64,000 nt of DNA from Escherichia coli (GTDB taxonomy: Bacteria; Pseudomonadota; Gammaproteobacteria; Enterobacterales; Enterobacteriaceae), in the NCBI RefSeq assembly GCF_045037415.1, contig NZ_CP173438.1, one strand, 5' to 3'. Under the pieces are notes generated by a model. That model had not been told where the DNA came from and ran no database searches. It was given only the letters and a program-made list of their open reading frames with translations. Position 1 is the stretch's first letter, and each line of letters begins with the position of its first letter. This document shows, piece by piece, positions 51,572 to 58,384 of the stretch. A program made the translations under genes and the position numbers.

Positions 51572-52494
51572 CGCTGGCGATTGACAAAACGGCGGCGCTG
51601 CTCGTCGTTCATAAAGGTCCAGGCTATAAAGCGGCTCTGCTTTTGCCCCTGGGCCATCTCTTTTTTTACCACCTTCACCGCACCTACGTCCGTCAAAGCA
51701 CGATACAACGGCGGTAAGTTTTCACCACGAGATACCAGCGAGGTAAACCACATCACCTGCTTCGCGAAGCCTTTGCTCTCTTCAATCATCTTTTTGATAA
51801 AAGCGACCTCACCGCCTTCACACCACAACTCCTGTTGCTGACCACCAAAGTTCAGTGCATCGTCTTTGTTCAGCCCCAGGTTACGGCGTTTACGTTCACT
51901 ACCTGCCCGTGCCGCAGCGGCGGAATCGTGGAATGGCGGGTTACACAAGGTCGCATCGTATTGCTCGTTTTTATGGATGATGCCGTTAAAAATCGCCCCA
52001 CTCTCTTTTTGCCGACGCAGACGAATGGCGCGGTTAAGCCCCGGATTAGCACTGATGATCGCCTGCGCACTGCTTAACGCCTGGCTGCTGGTTTCACTAC
52101 CGGTAAAACGCCAGCCATATTCATGTACGCCAATCAGCGGATAAATACAGTTCGCACCAACGCCGATATCCAGAATGCTGGCATTAGCTGGAATTGTTCC
52201 GCTTGCTTCGGCCAGTAAATCGGCAAGGTGATGAATATAATCCGCCCGGCCCGGTACTGGTGGGCAGAGAAAACCGTCCGGGATATCCCAGTTCGCTACG
52301 GCGTAAAAATGGGCCAGCAACGCCTTATTGAGCGCCTTCACCGCCAGCGGATTGGCAAAGTCTACGCTTTGCTCCCCGGCGGGTGTAAGCGTGAGGAATT
52401 GCCTGAGTTCAGGATTGACCTGACAAAGCGTGGCGAGATCGTAGCGGCTGTGATGACGGTTGCGCGGATGCAACCCCGGTTTCTGGGCGGACAT
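51568..52494 (-). CDS. rlmF: 23S rRNA m6A1618 methyltransferase RlmF (YbiN)
   Basis: ORF track 51568..52584(-); internal ATG gives 308 aa [20 protein letters not shown]...; SAM motif [11 protein letters not shown] and NPPF. Confidence 0.92.
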
Positions 52495-52769
52495 AGCATT
52501 CTCCTTTAAGCAGCGGCGTAAGATACCCGCATAACGCGACAGGGTAAATATCTGGCTGCGTTTATCATTTCTAAAAACCTTCACATGGCTATGGTTTATG
52601 GCAATTCACCATAAAAAACATCATCATGCATGTCATTGATTTGTCTTATTTTGTAAAAACACATCGTTCAAAAAATAAGCGCATCTCTGTCAATTTTTTG
52701 CGTCATTTTCATCGCGCAGGCGACCTACACTTATCTGGCACTACCCGTTGTATTTATGAGGATGTCATT

Positions 52770-53030
52770 ATGAAAAAGTGCCTCACACTACTGATTGCCA
52801 CCGTCCTGAGCGGAATCTCTCTCACGGCTTATGCCGCGCAACCGATGAGTAACCTGGACAGTGGTCAACTACGGCCCGCCGGTACCGTTTCGGCAACTGG
52901 CGCATCAAACCTAAGCGATCTGGAGGATAAACTGGCAGAAAAAGCGCGCGAACAAGGCGCGAAAGGTTATGTCATTAATTCCGCAGGCGGAAATGACCAG
53001 ATGTTCGGTACTGCAATCATCTACAAATAA
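52770..53030 (+). CDS. mcbA: Small periplasmic protein McbA (YbiM), DUF1471 family
   Basis: ORF track 52626..53030; internal ATG gives 86 aa MKKCLTLLIATVLSGISLTAYA...; C-terminal half about 60 percent identical to YbiJ in this window. Confidence 0.88.
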   Translation: MKKCLTLLIATVLSGISLTAYAAQPMSNLDSGQLRPAGTVSATGASNLSDLEDKLAEKAREQGAKGYVINSAGGNDQMFGTAIIYK

Positions 53031-53165
53031 CCCCACCAACGTAACTGCATTCGCCTCTGGATGCAGTTTTCGTCCAATTTGTAAGCAAAAAACATCAAAT
53101 ATGAACGCAATGTAAATAAATGTATTTCTTTTTCGCGCAATGGGTGATAGAAAATCGCGCCAAGT

Positions 53166-53190
53166 GATAATGCTTATCAATATTATTATC
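53166..53190. promoter_or_regulatory. Fur box upstream of fiu
   Basis: GATAATGCTTATCAATATTATTATC, resembling the GATAATGATAATCATTATC consensus, about 105 bp upstream of the fiu ATG. Confidence 0.6.
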
Positions 53191-53294
53191 ACTTGCACGT
53201 ACGCTATCACGGGATTAACAGTGGCATCGCATCCGCAGAGATGCTTTCTCGTGACAGTGAAAATTTCACCATATAAGAAAAAGTCACCTGCAAA

Positions 53295-55577
53295 ATGGAA
53301 AACAATCGCAATTTCCCTGCCAGACAATTTCATTCGCTCACGTTCTTTGCCGGTCTTTGTATTGGTATTACGCCTGTGGCACAGGCACTCGCTGCCGAAG
53401 GGCAAGCTAACGCGGATGACACGCTGGTTGTCGAAGCATCAACGCCTTCGCTTTATGCGCCACAAAAATCTGCCGATCCGAAATTCTCGCGTCCGGTAGC
53501 GGATACTACCCGCACGATGACAGTGATTTCTGAACAAGTGATTAAAGATCAGGGTGCAACCAACCTTACCGACGCGCTCAAAAACGTCCCCGGCGTGGGT
53601 GCGTTTTTTGCGGGTGAGAACGGTAACTCCACCACTGGCGACGCCATTTATATGCGCGGTGCCGATACCTCTAACAGTATTTATATCGATGGCATTCGCG
53701 ATATCGGCAGCGTCTCGCGCGACACCTTCAATACCGAGCAGGTCGAAGTAATTAAAGGGCCGTCCGGCACCGACTACGGGCGCAGCGCACCGACAGGCTC
53801 GATCAATATGATCAGCAAACAGCCGCGCAATGATTCCGGCATTGACGCCTCCGCCAGTATTGGCAGCGCCTGGTTCCGCCGCGGCACGCTGGACGTCAAT
53901 CAGGTCATTGGTGATACCACTGCGGTGCGCCTGAATGTAATGGGCGAAAAAACGCACGATGCCGGACGCGACAAAGTCAAAAATGAGCGTTACGGCGTCG
54001 CCCCTTCTGTCGCTTTTGGCCTTGGTACAGCGAATCGTTTGTATCTTAATTATCTGCATGTCACCCAGCACAACACGCCAGACGGCGGCATTCCGACCAT
54101 CGGTTTACCGGGTTTTTCTGCCCCATCTGCGGGAACAGCGGCCCTGAATCATTCCGGAAAAGTTGATACGCATAACTTTTACGGCACGGATTCCGATTAC
54201 GACGATTCGACCACCGACACCGCTACCATGCGTTTTGAGCACGACATCAACGATAACACCACCATTCGCAACACTACGCGTTGGTCGCGCGTAAAGCAGG
54301 ATTACCTGATGACGGCGATTATGGGTGGAGCGTCGAATATTACCCAGCCCACCAGCGATGTGAATAGCTGGACGTGGTCACGCACGGCGAATACCAAAGA
54401 TGTGAGTAACAAAATTCTCACCAACCAGACCAACCTGACCTCGACGTTCTATACCGGCGCTATCGGTCATGATGTCAGTACCGGCGTGGAATTTACCCGC
54501 GAAACACAGACTAACTATGGCGTTAATCCGGTGACGTTACCGACGGTAAATATTTATCATCCTGACAGCAGCATTCATCCCGGCGGCCTGACGCGCAACG
54601 GCGCAAACGCCAATGGTCAGACGGATACCTTCGCAATTTATGCCTTCGATACGCTGCAAATCACCCGTGATTTTGAGCTGAACGGTGGGATCCGTCTGGA
54701 TAATTATCATACTGAATATGACAGTGCCACCGCCTGCGGCGGCAGCGGGCGCGGTGCCATCACCTGCCCTGCTGGCGTGGCAAAAGGTTCTCCGGTAACC
54801 ACCGTCGACACCGCCAAGTCGGGCAATCTGGTGAACTGGAAAGCCGGGGCGCTGTATCACCTGACGGAAAACGGCAATGTTTATATTAACTATGCCGTTT
54901 CCCAGCAGCCGCCGGGCGGCAACAACTTCGCCCTTGCGCAGTCTGGCAGCGGTAACAGTGCCAACCGCACCGATTTTAAACCGCAAAAAGCCAACACCAG
55001 CGAGATTGGCACCAAATGGCAGGTTCTGGATAAACGCCTGCTACTTACCGCCGCGCTGTTCCGTACTGATATTGAAAATGAAGTTGAGCAAAATGATGAT
55101 GGGACTTATTCGCAATATGGTAAGAAACGTGTCGAAGGCTATGAGATATCCGTGGCCGGGAATATCACCCCCGCGTGGCAGATGATTGGCGGCTATACCC
55201 AGCAAAAAGCAACTATCAAAAACGGCAAAGATGTTGCCCAGGATGGTTCCTCATCGCTGCCGTATACCCCGGAACACGCCTTCACCTTATGGAGCCAGTA
55301 TCAGGCAACCGATGATATTTCTGTTGGTGCGGGCGCACGGTATATCGGCAGTATGCATAAAGGTTCAGACGGCGCGGTGGGAACGCCAGCATTTACCGAA
55401 GGTTATTGGGTCGCCGACGCCAAACTGGGGTATCGGGTTAATCGCAATCTCGACTTCCAGCTAAACGTCTACAACCTGTTTGATACCGATTACGTCGCCT
55501 CAATCAATAAGAGCGGCTACCGTTATCACCCGGGCGAGCCAAGAACCTTCTTGCTCACAGCCAATATGCATTTCTGA
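53295..55577 (+). CDS. fiu: TonB-dependent catecholate siderophore receptor Fiu
   Basis: ORF track 760 aa; signal peptide, TonB-box region, C-terminal barrel ending ...LTANMHF. Confidence 0.96.
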
Positions 55578-55618
55578 TTCAGATGTGGGGCGCAGGCCCC
55601 ACTTTTTGGAGAACTTGT

Positions 55619-56296
55619 ATGATGTACCACATTCCCGGCGTGTTATCGCCACAGGACGTCGCCCGTTTTCGCGAACACCTGGAACAAGCCGAATGGGTGG
55701 ATGGACGCGTCACCACCGGCGCACAAGGTGCGCAAGTTAAGAACAATCAACAAGTAGACACCCGCAGCGCCCTGTACGCCGCCCTGCAAAATGAGGTGCT
55801 GAACGCGGTTAACCAACATGCTTTGTTCTTTGCCGCGGCCTTGCCGCGTACCCTTTCCACGCCGCTGTTTAATCGCTATCAGAACAATGAAACCTATGGT
55901 TTTCATGTGGATGGCGCAGTACGCAGCCATCCACAAAACGGCTGGATGCGCACTGACCTTTCTGCCACGCTGTTTTTAAGCGATCCAGAAAGCTACGACG
56001 GCGGCGAACTGGTCGTTAATGACACCTTCGGGCAACATCGGGTAAAACTCCCGGCAGGCGATCTGGTGTTGTATCCCTCCAGCAGCCTGCATTGCGTGAC
56101 ACCCGTAACCCGCGGCGTGCGAGTGGCATCATTTATGTGGATCCAGTCGATGATCCGCGATGATAAAAAGCGCGCCATGCTGTTTGAACTGGACAACAAT
56201 ATTCAGTCGCTGAAAAGCCACTACGGCGAAAGTGAAGAGATCCTGTCGCTGCTCAATCTTTATCATAATCTGCTGCGGGAATGGTCGGAGATCTGA
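55619..56296 (+). CDS. ybiX: Fe(II)/2-oxoglutarate-dependent PKHD-type hydroxylase YbiX
   Basis: ORF track 55583..56296; ATG at 55619 gives 225 aa [17 protein letters not shown]...; HxD...H iron-binding motif (FHVDGAV). Confidence 0.9.
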
Positions 56297-56369
56297 CGCT
56301 TGAACTGCCCGAGTTCGTCCCTATATTAGCTACACTTAACTGTACAAGCATTGATATGGGGAGGACGAT

Positions 56370-56636
56370 ATGGCATCCGGTTGGGCTAATGATGACGCCG
56401 TCAACGAACAGATCAACAGTACAATTGAAGATGCGATTGCCCGCGCTCGGGGTGAAATTCCGCGTGGCGAAAGCCTGTATGAATGTGAAGAGTGCGGTGC
56501 CCCTATCCCGCAGGCCCGTCGGGAAGCCATTCCTGGCGTGCGCTTATGCATTCATTGTCAGCAGGAGAAAGATTTACAAAAACCAGCTTATACAGGATAT
56601 AATCGCAGAGGTTCGAAAGACAGCCAGTTACGTTAA
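56370..56636 (+). CDS. ybiI: DksA/TraR-type C4 zinc-finger protein YbiI
   Basis: ORF track 88 aa; CEECGAPIP...LCIHCQ four-cysteine finger. Confidence 0.9.
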   Translation: MASGWANDDAVNEQINSTIEDAIARARGEIPRGESLYECEECGAPIPQARREAIPGVRLCIHCQQEKDLQKPAYTGYNRRGSKDSQLR

Positions 56637-56900
56637 CTACAACTGGCGGGATGTATAGCGAATATAATTTGTATTTTGCGTGGCATTCCGTGCCTTTAAC
56701 GCTACCGTGACTGCCACGCGGTATAAAACAAGTCCATAAGTACAACAAATAAATGGTTTATCAGTATGTTAGATATCAATCAATTTATTTGAACAAGGTG
56801 GTCAATTCTCTTCGATTTTATCTCTCGTAAAAAAACGTGATACTCATCACATCGACGAAACAACGTCACTTATACAAAAATCACCTGCGAGAGATTAATT

Positions 56901-57161
56901 ATGAAAACTATCAATACTGTTGTTGCTGCTATGGCTCTTTCAACTCTGTCATTTGGCGTGTTCGCGGCGGAACCGGTAACGGCATCCCAGGCACAGAACA
57001 TGAATAAAATCGGCGTGGTTTCTGCCGATGGCGCATCCACCCTCGATGCCCTGGAAGCGAAACTGGCTGAGAAAGCCGCGGCGGCCGGTGCCAGTGGATA
57101 CAGCATCACTTCTGCCACCAACAACAATAAATTAAGCGGTACTGCGGTAATTTATAAGTAA
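56901..57161 (+). CDS. ybiJ: Small periplasmic protein YbiJ, DUF1471 family
   Basis: ORF track 86 aa MKTINTVVAAMALSTLSFGVFAAEP...; paralogue of McbA. Confidence 0.9.
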   Translation: MKTINTVVAAMALSTLSFGVFAAEPVTASQAQNMNKIGVVSADGASTLDALEAKLAEKAAAAGASGYSITSATNNNKLSGTAVIYK

Positions 57162-57271
57162 TTCGTAAGCTGGATCAGGCGTTTACGCTACGTTCAGCAC
57201 AAGTATTTCCCTGTCTGTTTGCCGACAGACGCATATGCTCTAACCCTCATGATCCTATGTTACCCTTGTTT

Positions 57272-57298
57272 GCCCGTCCGCCACTGGACGGGCTTTTT

Positions 57299-57300
<2 letters not shown>
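57272..57300. terminator. Terminator between ybiJ and ybiC
   Basis: GCCCGTCCGCCACTGGACGGGC followed by TTTTTTT. Confidence 0.65.

Positions 57301-58384
<1,084 letters not shown>

What the first reader, a model, noticed from the sequence alone, without database searches (positions are those of the whole stretch)
52770..57161. Paralogous 86-aa DUF1471 secreted proteins (mcbA, ybiJ) bracket the Fur-regulated fiu-ybiX-ybiI cluster
McbA and YbiJ are both exactly 86 aa with signal peptides, and their C-terminal ~45 residues are about 60 percent identical (GAS.L..LE.KLAEKA...GA.GY.I.SA..N....GTA.IYK). They lie on either side of a siderophore receptor, a 2OG-Fe(II) hydroxylase and a DksA-type zinc-finger protein, which could reflect a local duplication. 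Whether these small periplasmic proteins are linked to iron or envelope stress is not established here.
Basis: seen in the sequence. Interest (0 to 1): 0.3.

Follow-up and report, generated by a model that had tools for sequence, protein, structure and literature searches.

The report
Known mcbA/ybiJ paralogues flanking fiu
Two small exported stress/biofilm proteins of E. coli (McbA and YbiJ) are old family relatives that sit either side of an iron-uptake gene pair, but this layout is already annotated, and comparison with other species shows the iron genes are an optional insert with no demonstrated functional tie to the two proteins.

Summary
Window 52770-53030 is mcbA and 56901-57161 is ybiJ. 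Both are 86 aa and both are PF07338 (DUF1471). They align without gaps at 40/86 identity (27/45 in the C-terminus, E 2e-16). The window is E. coli chromosome, and 5416 of 5426 complete genomes hold the region.

The paralogy and the family are published, so nothing here is new. The interpretation needs correcting.

1. The pair is ancient: third-codon-position identity is 27% and the flanks show no similarity. The two are not demonstrably each other's closest relatives. McbA, YbiJ and the unlinked BhsA are roughly equidistant (43-47%). Bootstrap support for McbA+YbiJ is 37%, and each scores higher on the BhsA model than on the other's model. Local duplication is plausible but unproven.

2. Across 51 Enterobacteriaceae species the conserved core is mcbA-ybiI-ybiJ. 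Only 18 carry intact fiu-ybiX, and E. albertii and two Citrobacter species keep deletion scars. The Fur box occurs in all 21 fiu-bearing loci examined and in none of 37 lacking fiu.

3. Published Δfur data show a downstream gradient (fiu 5.5, ybiX 5.2, ybiI 3.0, ybiJ 1.2 log2; mcbA 0.4, not significant). That fits read-through, not a shared iron function.

Ordinary; low interest.

The parts
52770..53030 (+). mcbA (ybiM), 86-aa DUF1471 periplasmic protein. Signal peptide about 52770-52835; PF07338 domain at 52869-53027.
   Evidence: ORF and RefSeq annotation. PF07338 at 70.6 bits. NF040473 at 171.7 bits against a cut-off of 110.
53043..53071 (+). Hairpin AACTGCAT...ATGCAGTT followed by a T-run, just after the mcbA stop codon. 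Probably an intrinsic terminator that insulates mcbA from fiu.
   Evidence: Read from the sequence. The same AACTGCAT/ATGCAGTT arms follow mcbA in E. albertii, Citrobacter, Enterobacter, Lelliottia, Huaxiibacter and Pseudenterobacter. The simple terminator scan did not list it because it has few G-C pairs.
53160..53190 (.). Fur box or boxes overlapping the promoter-like site of fiu.
   Evidence: 15/19 match to GATAATGATAATCATTATC, with overlapping 13/19 matches. A promoter-like site lies at 53144-53171. A site of at least 14/19 is present in 21/21 fiu-bearing loci of other species. A ChIP-exo Fur peak is assigned to fiu-ybiX(-ybiI) in PMC10164565 Dataset 2.
53295..55577 (+). fiu, TonB-dependent catecholate siderophore receptor.
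   Evidence: Plug and TonB_dep_Rec_b-barrel domains; annotation.
55619..56296 (+). ybiX, PKHD-type 2OG/Fe(II) hydroxylase and partner of fiu.
   Evidence: PF13640 plus PF18331. NF003972 at 515.7 bits. The fiu/piuA-type receptor and dioxygenase are described as a co-conserved pair in bioRxiv 10.1101/2024.10.16.618771.
56300..56327 (+). Promoter-like site (TTGAAC, 16-nt spacer, TATATT) immediately upstream of ybiI.
   Evidence: A similar sequence block precedes ybiI in other genera whether the upstream gene is ybiX or mcbA.
56370..56636 (+). ybiI, 88-aa DksA/TraR-type C4 zinc-finger protein. It is the only gene always found between mcbA and ybiJ.
   Evidence: PF01258. NF008243 at 160.6 bits. Synteny in 51 species.
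56901..57161 (+). ybiJ, 86-aa DUF1471 periplasmic protein. Signal peptide about 56901-56966; PF07338 domain at 57000-57158.
   Evidence: ORF and annotation. PF07338 at 64.8 bits. NF007611 at 173.1 bits.
57204..57300 (+). ybiJ 3'UTR-derived sRNA ZbiJ (position mapped from K-12), ending at the strong terminator at 57272-57293. The small ORF ybiE lies antisense at 57175-57234.
   Evidence: K-12 annotates zbiJ at 837435-837531 and ybiE. The mapping uses the K-12/window alignment. Terminator. ZbiJ is described in PMC8175672.

Best explanation
This is the annotated E. coli locus rlmF< mcbA> fiu> ybiX> ybiI> ybiJ> <hcxB. McbA and YbiJ are two of the ten E. coli members of the Enterobacteriaceae-restricted DUF1471/YhcN family. 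Members are small Sec-exported periplasmic proteins tied to biofilm and stress responses, and their biochemical action is unknown.

The two are ancient paralogues. They belong to a subgroup with BhsA, and more distantly YhcN, whose branching order cannot be resolved.

The ancestral, conserved layout is mcbA-ybiI-ybiJ. The fiu-ybiX pair, with its own Fur-box promoter, is a self-contained iron-uptake cassette lying between mcbA and ybiI, and it has been deleted repeatedly in related lineages.

The genes appear to be transcribed largely independently. mcbA ends in a conserved hairpin terminator, and published work reports that McbR represses it. ybiI has its own promoter-like site. ybiJ is strongly acid-induced and ends in the ZbiJ terminator. 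None of these transcription units was mapped here.

The only link to iron is positional (inferred). Transcription from the derepressed fiu promoter appears to decay through ybiX, ybiI and ybiJ, which would give ybiJ a weak Fur dependence that mcbA, upstream of that promoter, lacks.
For: Identity of the locus: 5416 of 5426 complete E. coli genomes hold at least 80% of the region, with the same annotation.

Family membership: PF07338 and the NCBIfam McbA and YbiJ models. All ten K-12 paralogues were extracted and compared. The family is described in PMC4092069, and YbiJ is called a paralogue of McbA in bioRxiv 10.1101/2025.02.11.637708.

Age of the pair: nucleotide identity is 49% and third-codon-position identity is 27%. 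McbA and YbiJ orthologue groups are each monophyletic in 472/500 and 460/500 bootstraps across Escherichia, Citrobacter, Enterobacter, Leclercia, Lelliottia, Silvania, Huaxiibacter and Pseudenterobacter.

Synteny: of 80 species-level loci found with YbiI, 51 have mcbA, ybiI and ybiJ. Of those, 18 also have intact fiu-ybiX, 2 have only one of the two genes, and 31 have neither.

Loss rather than gain: E. albertii keeps 38 nt of the fiu 5' end and the last 17 nt of ybiX. C. werkmanii and C. youngae ATCC 29220 keep the last ~20 nt of ybiX right after the mcbA terminator, while other Citrobacter species retain the cassette. Fiu identity to E. coli (83-89%) tracks the flanking YbiO and RlmF.

Fur control travels with the cassette: the best Fur-box match is at least 14/19 in 21/21 fiu-bearing spacers and 8-12/19 in 37/37 fiu-less mcbA-ybiI spacers.

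Expression, from PMC10164565 Dataset 3 (Δfur/wt log2). MG1655: fiu 5.47, ybiX 5.21, ybiI 3.04, ybiJ 1.24 (p 3e-6), mcbA 0.40 (p 0.31). W3110: fiu 10.0, ybiX 7.1, ybiI 5.3, ybiJ 3.1. ybiJ is among the top acid-induced genes, alongside yhcN and bhsA (PMC10746267).

No promoter relationship: the upstream regions align no better than shuffled sequence (score 9 against a shuffle mean of 10.2).
Against: The read-through explanation for the ybiI and ybiJ response to fur is inferred from the expression gradient and from the lack of a T-rich terminator after ybiI. No transcript mapping was examined.

ybiI also has its own promoter-like site, so part of its Fur response could be indirect.

Klebsiella and more basal Enterobacterales did not appear among the 80 loci kept, so the age of the trio and the ancestral presence of fiu-ybiX at this site are not fully pinned down. 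Enterobacter, Lelliottia and Huaxiibacter show no recognisable ybiX remnant. For them, 'never had it' cannot be excluded on sequence alone.

The biochemical function of any DUF1471 protein remains unknown.
Confidence: 0.85

Rival explanations
1. Local duplication. mcbA and ybiJ would be sister genes made by duplicating one DUF1471 gene next to ybiI in an ancestor of the Escherichia-Citrobacter-Enterobacter group. They would then have diverged, with McbA evolving faster.
For: The genes are on the same strand, are both 86 codons, and align without gaps. They are only one gene apart in the ancestral layout. McbA+YbiJ is the most frequent grouping: it appears in both full-data NJ trees and in 183/500 bootstraps, against 77 for McbA+BhsA and 53 for YbiJ+BhsA. 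The family clusters elsewhere: yjfN-bsmA are adjacent and yjfY is about 8 kb away in K-12, and Salmonella has adjacent yhcN and a ycfR-like gene (PMC4092069). With 10 genes in 4.6 Mb, about 0.08 pairs within 4.1 kb are expected by chance (my arithmetic). McbA's within-group identity (0.72) is lower than YbiJ's (0.83), so a long McbA branch could hide a true sister relationship.
Against: Bootstrap support is only 37%, and the 110-taxon Kimura-distance tree does not recover the pair. The four-point test on group means prefers McbA+BhsA | YbiJ+YhcN in 291/500 replicates. Both proteins score higher on the BhsA NCBIfam model (101 and 116 bits) than on each other's model (76 and 81 bits). No similarity survives outside the coding sequences. 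ybiI sits between the copies and would need a separate explanation.
Confidence: 0.42
2. Independent recruitment. mcbA would derive from a bhsA-like (or other) DUF1471 gene that was copied or transferred into the rlmF-ybiI gap, so its proximity to ybiJ would be coincidental.
For: McbA's second-best NCBIfam model is BhsA (101 bits, above that model's 90-bit cut-off), not YbiJ. PMC4092069 notes that the Salmonella protein most similar to E. coli YbiM is YcfR, at 47%. The four-point test favours McbA with BhsA. Salmonella diarizonae has ybiI-ybiJ without mcbA.
Against: mcbA is present at the same site in Enterobacter, Leclercia and Lelliottia as well as Escherichia and Citrobacter. Its absence from Salmonella is therefore more simply a loss. 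McbA+BhsA appears in only 77/500 bootstraps. Chance co-location within 4 kb is improbable (about 0.08 pairs expected).
Confidence: 0.3
3. Functional iron/envelope module. McbA and YbiJ would be periplasmic accessories of the Fiu-YbiX catecholate uptake system, kept on either side of it by selection.
For: ybiJ rises 2.4-fold (MG1655) and 8.5-fold (W3110) in Δfur. At pH 4.4, ybiJ appears in the same top-20 table as the Fur-regulated fhuF and nrdHI.
Against: 31 of 51 species keep mcbA and ybiJ without fiu-ybiX. mcbA does not respond to fur deletion (0.40 log2, p 0.31). Neither gene has a Fur box. Fiu/PiuA-dioxygenase pairs are conserved across Proteobacteria that have no DUF1471 proteins at all (the family's restriction is stated in PMC4092069).
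Confidence: 0.04

Closest known systems
E. coli K-12 mcbA (b0806, ybiM) and ybiJ (b0802)
   Same: This is the same locus. The region is 97% identical in DNA to MG1655 with the same gene order and lengths. The proteins pass the NCBIfam McbA and YbiJ model cut-offs.
   Different: Only strain-level differences. K-12 carries a REP-like insert of about 90 nt between ybiJ and ybiE/zbiJ that is absent here.
BhsA/YcfR and YhcN (DUF1471 stress proteins)
   Same: Same fold family, same length class (85-87 aa), and a signal peptide. Identity to McbA and YbiJ is 37-47%. All are strongly acid- or stress-induced. Both bhsA and ybiJ give rise to 3'UTR sRNAs, BhsB and ZbiJ.
   Different: They are unlinked: 1.17 Mb and 3.39 Mb in K-12. 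BhsA is much more conserved across genera (0.85 within-group identity, against 0.72 for McbA).
Adjacent DUF1471 pairs: yjfN-bsmA in E. coli, and yhcN with a ycfR-like gene in Salmonella
   Same: Family members clustered on the chromosome, suggesting growth of the family by local duplication (PMC4092069).
   Different: Those pairs are directly adjacent. mcbA and ybiJ are separated by ybiI, and in E. coli also by fiu-ybiX.
Fiu-YbiX / PiuA-PiuC / CciT-CciO receptor-dioxygenase pairs
   Same: A Fur-regulated TonB-dependent catecholate receptor followed by a 2OG/Fe(II) dioxygenase. This is the cassette lying between the two paralogues.
   Different: That pair is found across Proteobacteria and has no general association with DUF1471 genes. 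Here it is merely inserted in the mcbA-ybiI spacer.

Membership tests
DUF1471 / YhcN / BhsA-McbA family (PF07338) | Pfam PF07338 domain above the gathering score | tested here: met
   McbA 70.6 bits and YbiJ 64.8 bits against a cut-off of 27, residues 34-86 over the full-length profile.
DUF1471 / YhcN / BhsA-McbA family (PF07338) | Small (~90 aa) single-domain protein with an N-terminal Sec signal peptide | tested here: met
   Both are 86 aa. The N-termini are MKKCLTLLIATVLSGISLTAYA|AQ and MKTINTVVAAMALSTLSFGVFA|AE, each with a basic n-region, a hydrophobic core and small residues at -3/-1. This is by inspection only; no signal-peptide predictor was run. Envelope enrichment of YbiJ-msfGFP is reported in bioRxiv 10.1101/2025.02.11.637708.
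DUF1471 / YhcN / BhsA-McbA family (PF07338) | Restricted to Enterobacteriaceae/Enterobacterales, with several paralogues per genome | tested here: met
   Ten paralogues were recovered from K-12. Every named homologue is enterobacterial. Only 446 representatives at 50% clustering among 1.84 billion proteins reach E <= 0.001. YbiI homologues in Halomonas, Pseudomonas and Morganella have no DUF1471 neighbour.
DUF1471 / YhcN / BhsA-McbA family (PF07338) | Mixed alpha+beta fold as solved for SrfN, YahO and YdgH | not tested
   Only weak sequence matches to solved structures: 2noc at E 5e-5 and 2ma4 at E 5.5e-4. No structure was predicted.
McbA model (NCBIfam NF040473, kind 'exception') / YbiJ equivalog (NF007611) | Score above the curated whole-protein cut-off of its own model and best among all models | tested here: met
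   McbA 171.7 bits and YbiJ 173.1 bits against a cut-off of 110. On each other's model they score 76 and 80.6 bits, below the cut-off.
Recent or sister local duplicate pair | The two genes are each other's closest paralogues with phylogenetic support | tested here: inconclusive
   Pairwise identity is 46.5% (McbA-YbiJ), 43% (McbA-BhsA) and 46.5% (YbiJ-BhsA). McbA+YbiJ is recovered in 183/500 bootstraps. BhsA is the second-best model for both.
Recent or sister local duplicate pair | Residual similarity of flanking or non-coding DNA, or unsaturated synonymous sites | tested here: not met
   Third-position identity is 27%. Upstream and downstream regions are no better than shuffled sequence. The only repeats, at a spacing of 4131 nt, lie inside the coding sequences.
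Fur regulon (direct targets) | Fur box in the gene's own promoter region | tested here: not met
   No match of at least 13/19 lies upstream of mcbA or ybiJ. The only sites in the finding interval are at 53160-53190, upstream of fiu.
Fur regulon (direct targets) | Derepression in a fur mutant | not testable with these tools
   From the literature only (PMC10164565 Dataset 3). ybiJ is +1.24 log2 in MG1655 and +3.08 in W3110. mcbA is +0.40, not significant.

The most novel reading that the evidence does not exclude
mcbA-ybiI-ybiJ may be a functional three-gene module conserved across the Escherichia-Citrobacter-Enterobacter group. In it the cytoplasmic TraR/DksA-like RNA-polymerase-binding protein YbiI and two periplasmic DUF1471 proteins would act in one envelope, acid or iron stress response, with the fiu-ybiX cassette plugged into the module in some lineages to put part of it under Fur control.
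Probability: 0.08. Interest if true: 0.4.

Novelty: already known. Interest (0 to 1): 0.1.

Why it matters
It matters little. The genes, their family, their paralogy and the Fur control of fiu-ybiX(-ybiI) are all annotated and published.

The modest added value is a cleaner picture for anyone working on these y-genes. First, the conserved unit is mcbA-ybiI-ybiJ. Second, fiu-ybiX is a dispensable, repeatedly deleted cassette that carries the Fur box with it. Third, the weak Fur response of ybiJ is best read as read-through. Expression data for ybiJ under iron limitation should therefore not be taken as evidence of an iron function for DUF1471 proteins.

Tried and rejected
1. Promoter and UTR comparison of mcbA and ybiJ. 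Local alignment is no better than shuffles, and the repeat search finds only in-frame coding similarity.

2. Rfam scan of 52300-57500 at E <= 0.1. No hits.

3. A 110-taxon family tree with representatives at 50% clustering. The BLOSUM-distance NJ tree put the McbA and YbiJ clades as sisters. Kimura-distance NJ and its bootstrap did not: 71/300 loose and 28/300 tight. I therefore do not claim sisterhood.

4. A focused four-subfamily data set with named BhsA and YhcN orthologues. It still gave only 37% support.

5. Looking for a Fur box in front of ybiI in genomes lacking fiu. None was found; best matches were 8-12/19. I therefore rejected the idea that the deletions fused the fiu promoter to ybiI.

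6. By eye I thought Salmonella diarizonae kept a ybiX 3' remnant. blastn found no significant match, so I do not claim it.

7. Context look-ups for distant McbA-like and YbiJ-like representatives (P0245, P0165, P0166). These gave contigs of only 1-3 kb. One (L098) showed an McbA-like gene followed by fiu, and the others were uninformative.


Full report
WHAT IS THERE. The window is E. coli chromosome. The 4.9-kb stretch around the finding is found at 95-100% identity in 5421 of 5426 complete E. coli genomes, and 5416 of them hold at least 80% of it. RefSeq annotates the region as rlmF(-), mcbA, fiu, ybiX, ybiI, ybiJ, ybiE(-), hcxB(-). K-12 has the same order at b0806-b0802, with 97% DNA identity to this window. 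In window coordinates, all on the + strand, the genes are:
- mcbA 52770-53030
- fiu 53295-55577
- ybiX 55619-56296
- ybiI 56370-56636
- ybiJ 56901-57161

These match.

THE OBSERVATION. McbA and YbiJ are both 86 aa. BLASTP aligns them end to end without gaps: 40/86 identical (46.5%), E 2e-16. Both carry PF07338 at residues 34-86, and each passes the curated cut-off of its own NCBIfam model. The N-termini look like standard Sec signal peptides; I judged this by eye, not with a predictor. A Fur-box-like site (15/19) lies at 53160-53190, overlapping a promoter-like site in front of fiu.

HOW OLD THE PAIR IS, AND WHETHER THEY ARE SISTERS. At the DNA level the two genes are 49% identical, and only 27% at third codon positions, which is close to random. 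The only repeats at the 4131-nt gene spacing lie inside the coding regions. Upstream and downstream regions align no better than shuffled sequence. Any duplication is therefore ancient.

I extracted the other eight K-12 DUF1471 genes: bhsA, yhcN, yjfN, bsmA, yjfY, yahO, ydgH and rclB. Pairwise identities are McbA-YbiJ 46.5%, McbA-BhsA 43%, YbiJ-BhsA 46.5% and YbiJ-YhcN 45%.

Using orthologues from 10-15 genera per subfamily, mean mature-domain identities are McbA-YbiJ 0.454, McbA-BhsA 0.426 and YbiJ-BhsA 0.471. YhcN is more distant, at 0.29-0.36. Each orthologue group is solidly monophyletic, at 375-472 of 500 bootstraps, so the split predates the divergence of these genera.

The order of the McbA/YbiJ/BhsA split is not resolved:
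- McbA+YbiJ is the commonest grouping (183/500), ahead of McbA+BhsA (77) and YbiJ+BhsA (53).
- A four-point test on group means prefers McbA+BhsA | YbiJ+YhcN in 291/500 replicates.
- A 110-taxon tree gave the sister pairing with one distance measure but not with another.
- Both proteins score higher on the BhsA NCBIfam model (101 and 116 bits) than on each other's model (76 and 81 bits).

Proximity, shared strand and the family's tendency to cluster make local duplication reasonable. yjfN and bsmA are adjacent, with yjfY about 8 kb away, and Salmonella has an adjacent pair (PMC4092069). It is still not shown. I put it at about 0.4.

WHAT THE PAIR REALLY BRACKETS. I searched species-representative genomes with YbiI and classified the neighbours in 80 loci.
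- 51 loci, all labelled as Enterobacteriaceae genera, have rlmF< mcbA> ... ybiI> ybiJ> ... ybiB<.
- Only 18 of those carry intact fiu-ybiX between mcbA and ybiI: E. coli and close relatives, part of Citrobacter, Leclercia and Silvania.
- Two carry only one of the two genes.
- 31 carry neither: E. albertii, Enterobacter, Lelliottia, Huaxiibacter, Pseudenterobacter and many Citrobacter.
- Salmonella diarizonae has ybiI-ybiJ only.
- YbiI homologues in Halomonas, Pseudomonas, Morganella and Pantoea have no DUF1471 neighbour.

Independent look-ups of McbA orthologues gave the same two layouts.

Where the cassette is missing, scars remain in three cases. E. albertii keeps 38 nt of the fiu signal-peptide region and the last 17 nt of ybiX. 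C. werkmanii and C. youngae ATCC 29220 keep about 20 nt of the ybiX 3' end directly after the mcbA terminator, while sister Citrobacter species retain the cassette. Fiu identity to E. coli (83-89%) matches that of the flanking genes. The simplest reading is one ancestral fiu-ybiX at this site with repeated deletion. For Enterobacter and its relatives no scar is left, so an old loss and never having had the cassette cannot be told apart.

LINK TO IRON. Fur boxes follow the cassette. A match of at least 14/19 is present in all 21 fiu-bearing spacers, and only background matches (8-12/19) occur in all 37 fiu-less mcbA-ybiI spacers. Neither mcbA nor ybiJ has a Fur box of its own.

Published data (PMC10164565) assign the Fur ChIP-exo peak to fiu-ybiX or fiu-ybiX-ybiI, and give these Δfur/wt log2 changes:
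- MG1655: fiu 5.47, ybiX 5.21, ybiI 3.04, ybiJ 1.24 (p 3e-6), mcbA 0.40 (p 0.31).
- W3110: fiu 10.0, ybiX 7.1, ybiI 5.3, ybiJ 3.1.

The steady decline along the direction of transcription fits read-through from the fiu promoter. So does the silence of mcbA, which lies upstream behind a conserved hairpin terminator. This is an inference; I did not see transcript maps. ybiI also has a promoter-like site of its own (56300-56327), conserved whether ybiX or mcbA lies upstream.

In the literature ybiJ behaves as an acid-stress gene together with yhcN and bhsA (PMC10746267). mcbA is reported as an McbR-repressed biofilm and colanic-acid gene (summarised in PMC4092069). YbiI is a TraR-like protein that can partly replace DksA when overproduced (PMC2613031). 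fiu-ybiX belongs to a receptor-dioxygenase pair conserved across Proteobacteria that lack DUF1471 proteins. Nothing points to a shared iron function for the two small proteins.

COMPARISON WITH WHAT IS KNOWN, AND VERDICT. The family, its roughly twelve subfamilies, its restriction to enterobacteria and the absence of McbA from Salmonella are described in PMC4092069. 'YbiJ is a paralog of McbA' is stated in bioRxiv 10.1101/2025.02.11.637708. The finding is therefore already known, and its interest is low. The corrections worth keeping are three. The sister relationship is unproven. The conserved unit is mcbA-ybiI-ybiJ, not the five-gene block. The Fur connection belongs to the removable fiu-ybiX cassette and reaches ybiJ only weakly and, by inference, passively.

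Noticed in passing
window 53295-55577 (fiu); hits H1-H3: In several complete E. coli genomes (e.g. NZ_OZ040274.1, NZ_AP046542.1) the region matches in two pieces, with an IS4-family transposase and a truncated 'TonB-dependent receptor plug domain' protein annotated under the match. This indicates fiu interrupted by IS4, another route to loss of the cassette's function.
   Followed up: no
window 57162-57300; K-12 locus L095: K-12 has a REP-like insert of about 90 nt (GCCGGATGCGGCGTAAACGCC...) between the ybiJ stop and ybiE/zbiJ that is absent from this strain. Here the ZbiJ sRNA region starts only about 43 nt after the ybiJ stop. Both bhsA and ybiJ have 3'UTR-derived sRNAs (BhsB, ZbiJ).
   Followed up: partly
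L016 6774-7002 (E. albertii); L020 and L033 (Citrobacter werkmanii, C. youngae ATCC 29220): These loci carry deletion scars of fiu-ybiX. E. albertii retains 38 nt of the fiu 5' coding region and 17 nt of the ybiX 3' end. The two Citrobacter retain about 20 nt of the ybiX 3' end fused just behind the mcbA terminator.
   Followed up: yes
L053 (Leclercia adecarboxylata NCTC13032), L060 (Citrobacter sp. Awk 4), L062 (Leclercia sp. UBA7405): These look like intermediate decay states. One has fiu without a full-length ybiX, one has ybiX without fiu, and one has a ~1-kb mcbA-ybiI spacer with neither gene recognisable.
   Followed up: no
window 52626-53030: The mcbA reading frame extends upstream to an ATG at 52626 (134 aa). 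Public databases hold 104-, 114-, 133- and 134-aa versions of McbA, which are probably start-site miscalls. The 86-aa start has a GAGGA Shine-Dalgarno-like sequence 7 nt upstream and aligns with every orthologue.
   Followed up: partly
window 55585-55602: A G+C-rich hairpin followed by TTTTT lies in the 41-nt fiu-ybiX spacer (terminator-like). Even so, ybiX is derepressed almost as strongly as fiu in Δfur, so the hairpin may be a weak attenuator or an RNA-stability element.
   Followed up: no
orthologue sets from L008-L066: McbA evolves markedly faster than YbiJ at the same locus. Mean within-group identity is 0.72 against 0.83, and E. coli versus Enterobacter is about 60% against about 79%.
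   Followed up: partly
L064 (Intestinirhabdus alba): This locus has ybiI between rlmF and hcxB with neither mcbA nor ybiJ. It is the only enterobacterial locus in the set that lacks both DUF1471 genes.
   Followed up: no
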